UHGV virus genome: UHGV-0099331
DNA: 18,860 nt
Origin: a virus
Direction: 5' to 3' (one strand)
In this document: positions 5,167-5,879 of the stretch, piece by piece
Position numbering within the stretch: the stretch's first letter is position 1
Layout of the letters: every line of letters starts with the position of its first letter
Made by a program: the position numbers and the translations under genes
The notes under the pieces: model-generated
The model's input: only the letters and a program-made list of their open reading frames with translations
Told to the model about the DNA's origin: nothing
Databases searched by the model: none

Positions 5167-5556
5167 TCAGGCGGCTGCACCCGCCGTTTTCTCGTACTTA
5201 CTGATAGTGATCTCGACCTTCCCTTCCGGGATAACCGGTCCCCACTCCACCAGCATTCTTTTCACCTGACTGTCGTCTTCCCACACACCCGCATGGGTCA
5301 GGGCGTCAAACAGCGCCTTGTTATAGTTGTCCAGATCGCGGATCCGGTTATCCGGAGGAAACAACACGATCTCCACTGAAGCAGGTGCCGACGTTGGTTT
5401 CGGCAGACGACGTAACTGCTCAACTATTGCTGCGCACGCCGCGCTCTGGAATTTTCGCCCCGCCGCGCTTATCAGGCTCTTACCAGCAAATGCCCCTTTG
5501 TTGGGGTGTCGCCAGTAGGTGTTCACGCTGGGTGGAAAAGGCAGAATCAGCTTCAT
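5167..5556 (-). CDS. rusA: Crossover junction endodeoxyribonuclease RusA (Holliday junction resolvase)
   Basis: 129 aa; MKLILPFPPSVNTYW N-terminus and acidic RDLDNYNKALFDAL catalytic region typical of RusA. Confidence 0.85.
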   Translation of the reverse strand: MKLILPFPPSVNTYWRHPNKGAFAGKSLISAAGRKFQSAACAAIVEQLRRLPKPTSAPASVEIVLFPPDNRIRDLDNYNKALFDALTHAGVWEDDSQVKRMLVEWGPVIPEGKVEITISKYEKTAGAAA

Positions 5557-5879
5557 ACTTTCAGCCCCCTCTCATGTAACCAGTGGGCTGCACGCAGCCT
5601 GGCGTTTTCCTCACCAGCAAGCAGTGCGCGGATAATCCCGGCCGCCTCGCTGTCGTCGTCCTTCACCGCGGTATGAAGCGTTATCCCCCGGGCCACGCCA
5701 CGCTTTATCGTGATGACGCCTTTTTTCTCCAGTGCGCGAAGATGCTCCACCGCTGCATTCACCGAACGGTATCCCAGCATGGTTGCCACCTCCTGATTGG
5801 TTGGCGGGAAGCCACGTTCTTTCTGATAAGAAATCAGCATATCCAGCACCTGCTGCTGGCATTGAGTTAACGTCGTCAT
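5553..5879 (-). CDS. LexA N-terminal DNA-binding-domain homolog lacking the S24 peptidase domain
   Basis: 108 aa; QQQVLDMLISYQKERGFPPTNQEVATMLGYRSVNAAVEHLRALEKKGVI aligns by eye with the LexA winged-helix domain (LexA: RQQEVFDLI...[34 protein letters not shown]). No Ser/Lys protease domain follows. Confidence 0.7.
   Translation of the reverse strand: MTTLTQCQQQVLDMLISYQKERGFPPTNQEVATMLGYRSVNAAVEHLRALEKKGVITIKRGVARGITLHTAVKDDDSEAAGIIRALLAGEENARLRAAHWLHERGLKV

What the first reader, a model, noticed from the sequence alone, without database searches (positions are those of the whole stretch)
5553..5879. LexA DNA-binding domain without the autocleavage domain
This 108 aa protein aligns by eye with the LexA N-terminal winged helix but lacks the S24 peptidase domain, so it could not be inactivated by RecA-stimulated self-cleavage. 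A phage-encoded, non-cleavable LexA-box binder could modulate host SOS genes or phage promoters during induction. A CTGT-N8-ACAG palindrome is present at 18164-18183.
Basis: partly seen in the sequence, partly recalled or inferred. Interest (0 to 1): 0.55.

Follow-up and report, generated by a model that had tools for sequence, protein, structure and literature searches.

The report
Prophage LexA-like DNA-binding protein, no protease

Summary
The ORF is real: 5553-5879, minus strand, 108 aa. Residues 1-68 are a clear LexA winged-helix DNA-binding domain (Pfam PF01726, E=3e-19; 51% identical and ungapped to E. coli LexA 1-68; model superposes on LexA at 1.1-1.7 A). There is no S24 protease domain. 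In its place is a conserved tail of about 35 residues predicted to form two helices.

The gene lies between a Dam-like methylase and RusA in the early-right (nin) operon of an SfV/mEp460-like lambdoid prophage inserted at proL. It is under purifying selection.

It is not new. Near-identical genes are annotated 'LexA family transcriptional regulator' in 2233 of 5426 complete E. coli genomes and in 50 phage records (PHROG 362). I found no functional study. The closest characterised analogue is GIL01 gp6, a truncated LexA homologue that activates a late promoter through its own palindrome.

Four of the five LexA base-contact residues are retained, so SOS-box binding is plausible. The contacts drift in relatives. 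A sister clade sits directly behind SOS-box promoters, often next to dinI.

The 18164-18183 palindrome exists, but it is weak and lies in the att arm beside a partial tRNA-Pro. A much stronger SOS box lies at 1264-1283.

The parts
5553..5879 (-). CDS of the 108-aa LexA-DBD-only protein (called 'LexN' in this report)
   Evidence: ORF. PF01726 E=2.9e-19. PHROG 362 E=1.2e-58 over its full length. pN/pS about 0.27 against a 65%-identical Citrobacter orthologue, with synonymous sites saturated.
5676..5879 (-). Residues 1-68: LexA-type winged helix-turn-helix
   Evidence: 51% identical and ungapped to E. coli LexA 1-68. Model matches 1lea/3jso at 1.1-1.7 A.
5730..5768 (-). Residues 38-50, recognition helix RSVNAAVEHLRAL (LexA has [13 protein letters not shown])
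   Evidence: Alignments. LexA contact residues S39, N41, A42, E44 and E45 as summarised in PMC3091678. Here they are S, N, A, V, E.
5658..5675 (-). Residues 69-74: low-confidence linker
   Evidence: pLDDT below 50 at residues 71-73 and a block mean of 60.
5556..5657 (-). Residues 75-108: conserved two-helix tail (helices 75-87 and 93-103) that replaces the S24 domain; candidate dimerisation module
   Evidence: AF2 helices with pLDDT about 85. The hydrophobic positions I82, L86, L87, A93, A97, W100 and L101 are invariant or nearly invariant within the close family; only A97 and L101 stay invariant down to about 40% identity. pN 0.25 against pS 0.87. No structural or sequence match in PDB.
5876..6562 (-). 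Upstream gene: phage Dam-like N6-adenine methyltransferase; its stop overlaps the LexN start
   Evidence: PF05869 E=1e-45. Adjacent in 47 of 80 related loci and absent in the rest.
5167..5556 (-). Downstream gene: RusA Holliday-junction resolvase; its start overlaps the LexN stop
   Evidence: PF05866. Immediately adjacent in 78 of 80 loci.
2575..7023 (-). Conserved module PerC-like (6529-7023) - Dam - LexN - RusA - KilA-N (4338-5147) - DUF968 (3341-4336) - Q antiterminator (2575-3327)
   Evidence: Pfam. Same order in mEp460 and E. coli RefSeq annotation, in Citrobacter and in the Enterobacter and Cronobacter sets.
9122..9150 (-). pR-like promoter match (TTGACC-17-TAGCAT) in the cI/cro intergenic region; likely origin of the transcript that includes LexN
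   Evidence: Consensus scan. No terminator-like site on the minus strand between it and 5553. Consensus-level evidence only.
9193..9819 (+). The prophage's own CI-type repressor (HTH_3 + Peptidase_S24); this is the RecA-cleavable switch, and it is separate from LexN
   Evidence: PF00717 E=9e-28 and PF01381 E=1e-10.
1264..1283 (.). Best LexA (SOS) box in the window, CACTGTTTATTTTTACAGTA, in codons 3-9 of the late-region DNA methylase gene (239-1291, -)
   Evidence: PWM 21 bits against a shuffle 95th percentile of 15.3. Sequence context. Present in every copy of this methylase, including a diverged allele that keeps a CTGT...CCAG variant, and in Citrobacter phage phiNP, which lacks LexN.
18164..18183 (.).
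   Evidence: Exact CTGT-N8-ACAG. 13.6 bits, not above chance. Lies in the att arm. Conserved as CACTGTTTGCGCATACAGTA in E. coli NC19, next to a tRNA-Pro and with different cargo genes.
18229..18283 (+). 3' part of tRNA-Pro (proL), followed by its terminator and yejO: the prophage/chromosome junction
   Evidence: Sequence. The same stretch is annotated tRNA-Pro in NC19. No complete tRNA is called here by ARAGORN or Rfam. Identification as proL rests partly on my own knowledge of that sequence.

Best explanation

Shown:
- A LexA-type winged helix (residues 1-68).
- No S24 protease or dimerisation domain.
- A selectively constrained two-helix tail (residues 75-103).
- A position in the tightly packed early-right (nin) operon of a lambdoid prophage that has its own cleavable CI repressor.

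Inferred:
- The protein is made only once CI has been cleaved, that is, during SOS-triggered lytic development, when host LexA has been destroyed.
- The tail supplies the dimerisation that LexA normally gets from its C-terminal domain.
- The dimer binds CTGT-containing, SOS-box-like palindromes. These would include host SOS operators and the phage's own box at 1264-1283.
- It thereby acts as an uncleavable stand-in for LexA that re-silences SOS-box promoters while RecA is still active.
For: - Domain identity and fold.
- LexA contact residues S39, N41, A42 and E45 are retained, as are wing residues R64-G65-I66.
- Published controls of the LexA-based two-hybrid system show that the LexA DBD alone does not repress sulA-lacZ, whereas the DBD fused to any dimerising partner does (PMC7160566). 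A DBD with a natural dimerising tail would therefore be a working, uncleavable SOS-box repressor.
- The tail is conserved to about 40% identity across Enterobacteriaceae, with a conserved hydrophobic face. It is under purifying selection. It is joined by a low-confidence linker, and pTM is only 0.53 despite a pLDDT of about 80, which suggests a separate module rather than part of the DBD fold.
- Expression context: overlapping stop/start codons, a pR-like promoter, and no minus-strand terminator in between.
- The same phage lineage carries canonical SOS boxes: in the methylase at 1264-1283, inside cI alleles, and upstream of KilA-N in L043.
- In the sister clade (Klebsiella, Cedecea, Enterobacter phages; also PHROG 362) the homologue lies 0.5-1.5 kb downstream of a sigma-70 promoter overlapped by a strong SOS box. 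This holds in 71 of 74 and 27 of 33 loci against 0.6 boxes per Mb by chance. The promoter often also drives a dinI homologue, which is a known SOS modulator.
Against: - No binding data exist.
- E44 is replaced by V here and is never E anywhere in the family.
- Relatives in hosts with the same LexA and SOS box have different contact residues: Citrobacter S,N,T,A,G; Klebsiella S,N,A,L,L; Salmonella S,N,T,F,I. This argues against a family-wide need to read the canonical box.
- The phage SOS boxes also occur without this gene (phiNP; loci L146 and L169), so they are explained by host LexA alone.
- No SOS box lies within 1.6 kb upstream of the gene in 211 loci of the window's own clade.
- Dimerisation of the tail is inferred, not modelled.
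- The one characterised phage LexA-DBD-only protein, GIL01 gp6, evolved a different site and activates transcription.
- My LexA-box matrix was built from operator sequences recalled from memory.
Confidence: 0.4

Rival explanations
1. A phage-specific regulator of the GIL01 gp6 kind. A captured LexA DNA-binding domain has evolved its own operator, which is not the SOS box. It activates or represses one or a few phage promoters to time the lytic programme.
For: - Precedent: gp6 is a truncated LexA homologue that binds GaCACAnnTGTGaC over the -35 of the late promoter and activates it (PMC6182141).
- Recognition-helix contact residues vary between genera although host LexA does not.
- E44 is lost throughout the family.
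- The gene is embedded in a conserved regulatory/recombination module ending in Q.
- The SOS boxes in these phages do not depend on the gene.
Against: - No candidate operator was found. The module has almost no intergenic DNA. Inverted-repeat scans of the five intergenic gaps, and of CTGT/ACAG pairs at spacings of 0-24, gave nothing recurrent.
- The E. coli, Cedecea and Enterobacter forms keep a helix almost identical to LexA's: SPNAAAEHLKALERKG against [16 protein letters not shown].
- Late genes already have a Q antiterminator.
- gp6 is a different lineage (PHROG 3502, 66 aa, no tail, no pairwise BLASTP alignment).
Confidence: 0.35
2. A LexA antagonist. It occupies SOS-box half-sites or whole boxes without repressing, or blocks re-binding of newly made LexA. 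SOS-box promoters then stay open and induction becomes irreversible through positive feedback.
For: - Same DNA-reading residues as LexA.
- In the sister clade the gene is itself behind an SOS-box promoter together with Q-like and recombination genes. An antagonist there would lock the switch on.
Against: - In L310 and L390 the boxes overlap or directly follow the -10 element, so any bound protein should hinder RNA polymerase.
- The co-encoded DinI points toward damping, not prolonging, the SOS signal.
- There is no precedent that I know of.
Confidence: 0.08
3. Not a DNA-binding regulator at all. Either it is a decaying fragment of a captured lexA gene, or it is a protein-binding adaptor whose tail is the active part.
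For: - An Ala-Gly at 88-89 aligns with the LexA cleavage site A84-G85, which looks like a vestige of a full-length ancestor.
- The tail has no recognisable homologue.
Against: - Strong purifying selection on both halves.
- Fixed length of 106-108 aa across genera.
- Present in 41% of complete E. coli genomes.
- The helix-3 and wing residues used for DNA contact are the best conserved part.
Confidence: 0.05

Closest known systems
E. coli LexA repressor (N-terminal domain; PDB 1lea, 3jso)
   Same: - Winged helix-turn-helix fold.
- 51% identity over residues 1-68 with no gaps.
- Contact residues S39, N41, A42 and E45 and wing residues R64-G65-I66 are kept.
   Different: - No S24 domain, no Ser/Lys dyad and no conserved Ala-Gly site, so no RecA-stimulated self-cleavage and no C-terminal-domain dimerisation.
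- E44 is V.
- A two-helix tail replaces the C-terminal domain.
- Encoded in a prophage early operon, not at the lexA locus.
Bacillus phage GIL01 gp6 (truncated LexA homologue; Fornelos et al. 2018, PMC6182141)
   Same: - A phage-encoded protein consisting essentially of a LexA DNA-binding domain.
- Made from an early operon after SOS induction.
- The same general kind of element.
   Different: - gp6 is 66 aa with no tail, belongs to PHROG 3502 rather than 362, and gives no pairwise BLASTP alignment with this protein.
- It is a tectivirus protein of a Gram-positive host.
- It has been shown to bind its own palindrome and to activate a late promoter. Nothing has been shown for the enterobacterial protein.
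Annotated orthologues: mEp460_046 'LexA DNA binding domain protein', SfV orf42, SfII/SfIV, Stx2c/Stx2a/Stx2k phage genes; PHROG 362 'transcriptional repressor'; PGAP 'LexA family transcriptional regulator'
   Same: - 95-98% nucleotide identity.
- Same neighbours (Dam, RusA).
- Same length.
   Different: Nothing material: this is the same gene. The names are homology-based, and some are wrong ('SOS-response repressor and protease LexA', 'RecA-mediated autopeptidases', 'Rrf2 family'). I found no experimental paper.
Engineered LexA-DBD fusions of the LexA-based bacterial two-hybrid system (Dmitrova 1998; Daines & Silver 2000, as used in PMC7160566)
   Same: A LexA DNA-binding domain joined to a heterologous dimerising segment. 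Such fusions repress sulA-lacZ and cannot be cleaved.
   Different: Those are artificial and use the authentic LexA helix. Here the tail's dimerisation and the operator specificity are inferred only.
Prophage DinI homologues behind SOS boxes
   Same: Small phage-borne proteins that act on the SOS circuit. In the sister clade one is co-located with the LexN homologue behind the same SOS-box promoter.
   Different: DinI acts on RecA filaments, not on DNA. There is no DinI gene in this window or in its clade.

Membership tests
LexA repressor proper (NCBIfam TIGR00498 equivalog) | N-terminal LexA-type winged-helix DNA-binding domain | tested here: met
LexA repressor proper (NCBIfam TIGR00498 equivalog) | C-terminal S24 peptidase/dimerisation domain with the Ser119-Lys156 dyad | tested here: not met
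   The protein ends at residue 108. There is no PF00717 hit. TIGR00498 scores 67.7 against a cutoff of 110.95 and only profile positions 1-91 of 203 are matched.
LexA repressor proper (NCBIfam TIGR00498 equivalog) | Ala84-Gly85 cleavage site in an extended strand | tested here: not met
   A88-G89 aligns with A84-G85. However, G is N in several close relatives, the pair is absent in distant ones, and the segment is predicted helical.
LexA repressor proper (NCBIfam TIGR00498 equivalog) | Binds CTGT-N8-ACAG SOS boxes and represses | not testable with these tools
   Only indirect evidence: 4 of 5 contact residues are kept, and SOS boxes are present in the phage lineage.
Pfam PF01726 LexA_DNA_bind / PHROG 362 | Full-length match to the family profile above threshold | tested here: met
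   PF01726 positions 1-65 of 65. PHROG 362 positions 1-106 of 106, E=1.2e-58. The sister-clade proteins also match PHROG 362 including the tail.
GIL01 gp6-type phage truncated LexA homologues | Phage protein made essentially of a LexA DBD, without the protease domain | tested here: met
GIL01 gp6-type phage truncated LexA homologues | Sequence-family membership with gp6 | tested here: not met
   No BLASTP alignment. gp6's best PHROG is 3502 (E=2e-21) and it matches 362 only at 2.8e-5. This protein's best is 362.
GIL01 gp6-type phage truncated LexA homologues | Own palindromic site at a late promoter; activates transcription | tested here: inconclusive
   No recurrent palindrome was found in the intergenic gaps or near Q and the late region. 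Activity is not testable here.
Anti-phage defence components (PADLOC) | Match to a defence-system protein model | tested here: not met
   Only a weak wHTH-level hit (CARF3, E=4e-4).

The most novel reading that the evidence does not exclude
A family of uncleavable LexA surrogates, carried by prophages in about 40% of E. coli strains and in many other Enterobacteriaceae, re-imposes repression on SOS boxes after host LexA has been destroyed. In this reading it shuts off host SOS functions, the phage's own SOS-box genes, and LexA-controlled antirepressors or colicins of rival elements during induction. In the Klebsiella/Cedecea clade it would act as a self-limiting timer on its own SOS-box promoter, alongside DinI.
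Probability: 0.3. Interest if true: 0.6.

Novelty: new member of a known kind. Interest (0 to 1): 0.35.

Why it matters
If the protein does read SOS boxes, a large fraction of natural E. coli strains would carry one to four extra LexA-like repressors that RecA cannot remove. That fraction includes Stx2-, Stx2c- and cdt-converting phage lysogens and ST131-type strains. The extra repressors would alter SOS output, mutagenesis, toxin-phage induction and competition between co-resident prophages. K-12-based work would not have seen this, because the K-12 CPS-53 remnant stops short of the gene (K-12 gene content is from my own knowledge).

If it instead has its own operator, it is an ordinary small phage regulator and a second, independent case of a phage co-opting the LexA DNA-binding domain, after GIL01 gp6. 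Either way the question is cheap to settle experimentally.

As it stands, this is an already annotated, uncharacterised gene, not a discovery.

Tried and rejected
- **Co-occurrence of phage SOS boxes with the gene.** In the phage collection the methylase carrying the box occurs in 27 of 28 records that also have the gene, and the cI allele with an internal box in 13 of 13. I rejected this as evidence. The genes are linked in one phage lineage, and exceptions exist: phiNP has both boxes and no gene, and loci L146 and L169 have the box and RusA but no gene.
- **De novo operator search.** I scanned CTGT/ACAG pairs at spacings of 0-24, perfect 8+8 palindromes, and inverted repeats in five intergenic gaps. 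Nothing recurrent appeared beyond terminators.
- **Covariation between recognition-helix variants and upstream boxes in the sister clade.** None was seen. The boxes stay CTGT...ACAG, as host LexA requires.
- **Defence-system models.** Nothing relevant.
- **The A88-G89 dipeptide as a cleavage site.** Not conserved and predicted helical.
- **Searches that could not be run or found nothing.** The afdb50 library was unavailable. The distant alignment was too divergent for a genome-contig scan. The Salmonella homologue P0212 gave no viral loci. The Zhang et al. 2010 LexA-DNA paper is not held, so contact residues are cited second-hand from PMC3091678.
- **Homodimer modelling.** Not possible with the tools allowed.
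Full report
**What is at the coordinates.** The ORF is 5553..5879 on the minus strand, with an ATG start, and encodes 108 aa. Its ATG overlaps the stop of the upstream gene in an ATGA, and its TGA overlaps the ATG of the downstream gene in another ATGA. A GGAG sequence lies 8 nt upstream of the start.

**Similarity to LexA.** The formal similarity is unambiguous.
- Pfam LexA_DNA_bind (PF01726) covers residues 1-65 against the whole 65-position profile, with E=2.9e-19.
- The best PDB sequence hit is the E. coli LexA DNA-binding domain, at E=8e-16.
- BLASTP against E. coli LexA gives 35/68 identities with no gap over residues 1-68 of both proteins.

**Absence of the protease domain.** The protein has no S24 domain.
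- The NCBIfam lexA equivalog scores 67.7 against a cutoff of 110.95, and only the first 91 of 203 profile positions are matched.
- After a poorly predicted linker (residues 69-74), the model shows two helices (75-87 and 93-103) with pLDDT of about 85.
- Nothing in PDB resembles these helices by fold or by sequence.

**Where it sits.** The window is the early and integration end of a lambdoid prophage of the SfV/mEp460 type.
- Positions 1-13.6 kb are 96-98% identical to phages vB_EcoS-569R4 and mEp460 and to a series of Stx2c phages.
- On the minus strand the genes run as follows:
  - a pR-like promoter at 9150-9122
  - a CII-like gene and an O-like gene
  - a PerC-like gene (6529-7023)
  - a Dam-like methylase (5876-6562)
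  - the LexA-like gene
  - RusA (5167-5556)
  - KilA-N (4338-5147)
  - DUF968 (3341-4336)
  - Q (2575-3327)
  - a second DNA methylase (239-1291)
- No terminator-like site lies on that strand between the promoter match and the gene.
- The prophage has its own cleavable repressor at 9193-9819 (HTH_3 plus Peptidase_S24). The LexA-like protein is therefore not the immunity repressor.
- The integrase is at 13897-15081.
- The element ends at a partial tRNA-Pro (about 18229-18283), next to yejO and narP.

**It is a real, constrained and very common gene.**
- Compared with a 65%-identical Citrobacter orthologue, synonymous sites are saturated (pS 0.77) while pN is 0.20. The tail alone gives pN 0.25 against pS 0.87.
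- The gene occurs in 2233 of 5426 complete E. coli genomes, at up to four copies per genome, under the PGAP name 'LexA family transcriptional regulator'.
- It occurs in 50 phage records: SfV orf42, SfII, SfIV, mEp460_046 'LexA DNA binding domain protein', cdtI, and the Stx2a, Stx2c and Stx2k phages.
- It matches PHROG 362 'transcriptional repressor' end to end.
- Proteins with the same DBD-plus-tail architecture, down to about 40% identity, occur in Citrobacter, Cronobacter, Kosakonia, Enterobacter, Cedecea, Klebsiella and Salmonella.
- In 80 near-identical viral loci RusA follows immediately in 78, and the Dam gene precedes in 47.
- The same PerC-LexN-RusA-KilA-N-DUF968-Q order holds in Citrobacter.
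- Full-text searches found the gene only as a catalogue entry: pham 237, 'LexA family transcriptional regulator, pfam01726', in 15 Stx phages (PMC8136144). I found no functional study.

**Can it read SOS boxes?** The evidence points both ways.

In favour:
- The LexA residues reported to contact DNA are S39, N41, A42, E44 and E45, all in helix 3 (PMC3091678). This protein has S, N, A, V and E at those positions.
- Its helix reads RSVNAAVEHLRAL, against [13 protein letters not shown] in LexA. The wing residues R64-G65-I66 are also kept.
- Controls of the LexA-based two-hybrid system show that the LexA DBD alone does not repress sulA-lacZ, whereas the DBD joined to a dimerising partner does (PMC7160566).
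- The decisive property is therefore whether the tail dimerises. The tail is an amphipathic helical hairpin. Its hydrophobic positions I82, L86, L87, A93, A97, W100 and L101 are invariant or nearly so within the close family, and A97 and L101 stay invariant down to about 40% identity.
- The tail hangs on a flexible linker, and pTM is only 0.53. This fits a separate oligomerisation or partner-binding module. It is an inference and has not been modelled.

Against:
- Position 44 is never Glu anywhere in the family.
- The other contact residues drift in relatives whose hosts have the same LexA: Citrobacter S,N,T,A,G; Klebsiella S,N,A,L,L; Salmonella S,N,T,F,I.

**SOS boxes in and around these phages.** I built a LexA-box weight matrix from E. 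coli operators recalled from memory, so it is approximate.
- The window's best site is CACTGTTTATTTTTACAGTA at 1264-1283, scoring 21 bits. The 95th percentile of the best score in shuffled windows is 15.3, and the largest shuffle score was 21.18.
- That site lies in codons 3-9 of the late-region methylase gene. It accompanies every copy of that gene, including a diverged allele that keeps a CTGT...CCAG form.
- Related loci carry a near-perfect box inside the linker codons of a cI allele (for example L012 7095-7114; also in mEp460).
- Two loci carry a box in a RusA/KilA-N intergenic insert.
- In the phage collection these box-bearing modules are found almost only in genomes that also have the LexA-like gene: 27 of 28 and 13 of 13.
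- This is linkage within one lineage, not evidence of function. Citrobacter phage phiNP has both kinds of box and no such gene. Loci L146 and L169 have the methylase box and RusA without it. Host LexA is a sufficient explanation for these boxes.

**A sister clade tied to SOS promoters.** Homologues from Klebsiella, Cedecea and Enterobacter phages are 130-165 aa as called, match PHROG 362 including the tail, and sit in a different arrangement.
- The order is: a terminator; a sigma-70 promoter whose -10 is overlapped or followed by a strong SOS box; often a dinI homologue (PF06183, E=1e-25); a small ORF; the LexA-like gene; a 67-aa ORF; sometimes a RusA-like gene; DUF968; and a Q-like gene.
- A box of at least 17.5 bits lies within 1.6 kb upstream in 71 of 74 and 27 of 33 loci. 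The figure is 0 of 211 loci in the window's own clade. Chance gives about 0.6 boxes per Mb.
- The box is present even where dinI is absent (L390-L394).
- In that clade the protein is therefore made when LexA is cleaved, next to a known SOS modulator. A LexA-like helix (SPNAAAEHL) facing an SOS box at its own promoter is what an uncleavable autoregulator would look like.
- This raises my estimate for the surrogate model, but it does not prove it. Any phage lytic gene is SOS-dependent in one way or another.

**The cited palindrome.** CACTGTTTGCGCACACAGTG at 18164-18183 is real, but it is a poor candidate.
- It scores 13.6 bits and has a G+C-rich spacer unlike real LexA sites.
- One such core match per window is expected about a quarter of the time.
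- It lies about 23 nt upstream of the hybrid/partial tRNA-Pro at the prophage end.
- The same arm, with the palindrome as CACTGTTTGCGCATACAGTA, flanks tRNA-Pro in E. coli NC19 beside different cargo genes.
- The arm occurs in only 78 of 5426 genomes, against 2233 for the gene.
- It belongs to the integration module, and its function was not tested.

**Comparison with what is known.**
- The protein fails the membership test for LexA proper. It has no S24 domain, no conserved cleavage site, and scores below the equivalog cutoff.
- It is a member of PF01726 and PHROG 362.
- The kind of element, a phage-encoded protein that is essentially a LexA DNA-binding domain, is known from Bacillus tectivirus GIL01. 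There gp6 (66 aa) binds its own palindrome over the -35 of the late promoter P3 and activates it (PMC6182141).
- The enterobacterial protein is a separate lineage. It gives no pairwise alignment with gp6, belongs to a different PHROG, and has an added tail.
- I therefore file it as a new, uncharacterised but already annotated member of a known kind.

**Verdict.**
- My best reading, at 0.4, is an uncleavable, tail-dimerised LexA surrogate acting on SOS-box-like sites during lytic development.
- The main rival, at 0.35, is a gp6-like regulator with its own operator.
- Interest is moderate to low (0.35). The gene is common and potentially relevant to SOS biology in natural strains. Its existence is database knowledge and its function is a simple open experiment.

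Noticed in passing
window 1264-1283 (within ORF 239..1291, minus strand): A strong canonical LexA box, CACTGTTTATTTTTACAGTA, lies inside codons 3-9 of the late-region N6/N4 DNA methylase gene, downstream of Q. It is kept in all alleles seen, including a CTGT...CCAG variant, and in Citrobacter phage phiNP. An SOS box inside a coding start in the late operon is unexplained.
   Followed up: partly
L012 7095-7114; L001 (mEp460) 11816-11835; L084 5103-5122; L086 1865-1884: A near-perfect LexA box (TACTGTAT[A/G]TAAAAACAGTA, 25-27 bits) lies inside the linker-coding part of a CI-type (HTH + S24) repressor gene in L012. Boxes of 23-27 bits at comparable positions occur in many related phages, and the cI-like gene of phiNP also carries one. 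This allele is absent from this window. Its purpose is unknown.
   Followed up: partly
L310 7480-9730; L390 5530-8000 (and most of L310-L416): In Klebsiella, Cedecea and Enterobacter phages there is a conserved unit: an SOS-box promoter, optionally dinI, a small ORF of about 80 aa, the LexA-DBD protein, a 67-aa ORF, sometimes a RusA-like gene, then DUF968 and a Q-like gene. This places a late-gene antiterminator directly behind a LexA-controlled promoter.
   Followed up: partly
L043 and L044, 10765-10784: A LexA box (TACTGTATTTATGAACAGTG) lies in a 150-bp insert between RusA and a variant KilA-N gene. This layout resembles LexA-controlled antirepressor genes.
   Followed up: no
window 17995-18023: An inverted pair of perfect DnaA-box sequences (TGTGGATAA-N5-TTATCCACA) lies in the non-coding stretch between ORF 17032..17799 and the att end.
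   Followed up: no
window 16508-16612 versus 14967-15072: A 72-73% identical copy of the 3' end of the integrase gene lies 1.5 kb downstream of the intact integrase. RefSeq annotates it as a recombinase pseudogene. It suggests remains of an earlier element at the same proL site, with a DUF2971 gene and two hypothetical genes as cargo between int and att.
   Followed up: no
L310 7049-7378: A 109-aa ORF begins GFPSPANDYVEQRL, which resembles the N-terminus of processed UmuD' (from memory). It has no Pfam hit and lies just upstream of the dinI promoter in 7 of 80 Klebsiella loci.
   Followed up: no
representative search hits P0130, P0144, P0150-P0152 and others: Some relatives carry two LexA_DNA_bind stretches in one polypeptide (tandem DBDs). 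This could be another way of doing without the LexA dimerisation domain.
   Followed up: no
database annotations of the orthologues: Several records name this 108-aa protein 'SOS-response repressor and protease LexA', 'RecA-mediated autopeptidases' or 'Rrf2 family'. Some RefSeq phage records name the neighbouring Dam gene 'phosphoadenosine phosphosulfate reductase'. The protease names are contradicted by the domain analysis here, and the reductase name conflicts with the Pfam Dam hit.
   Followed up: yes
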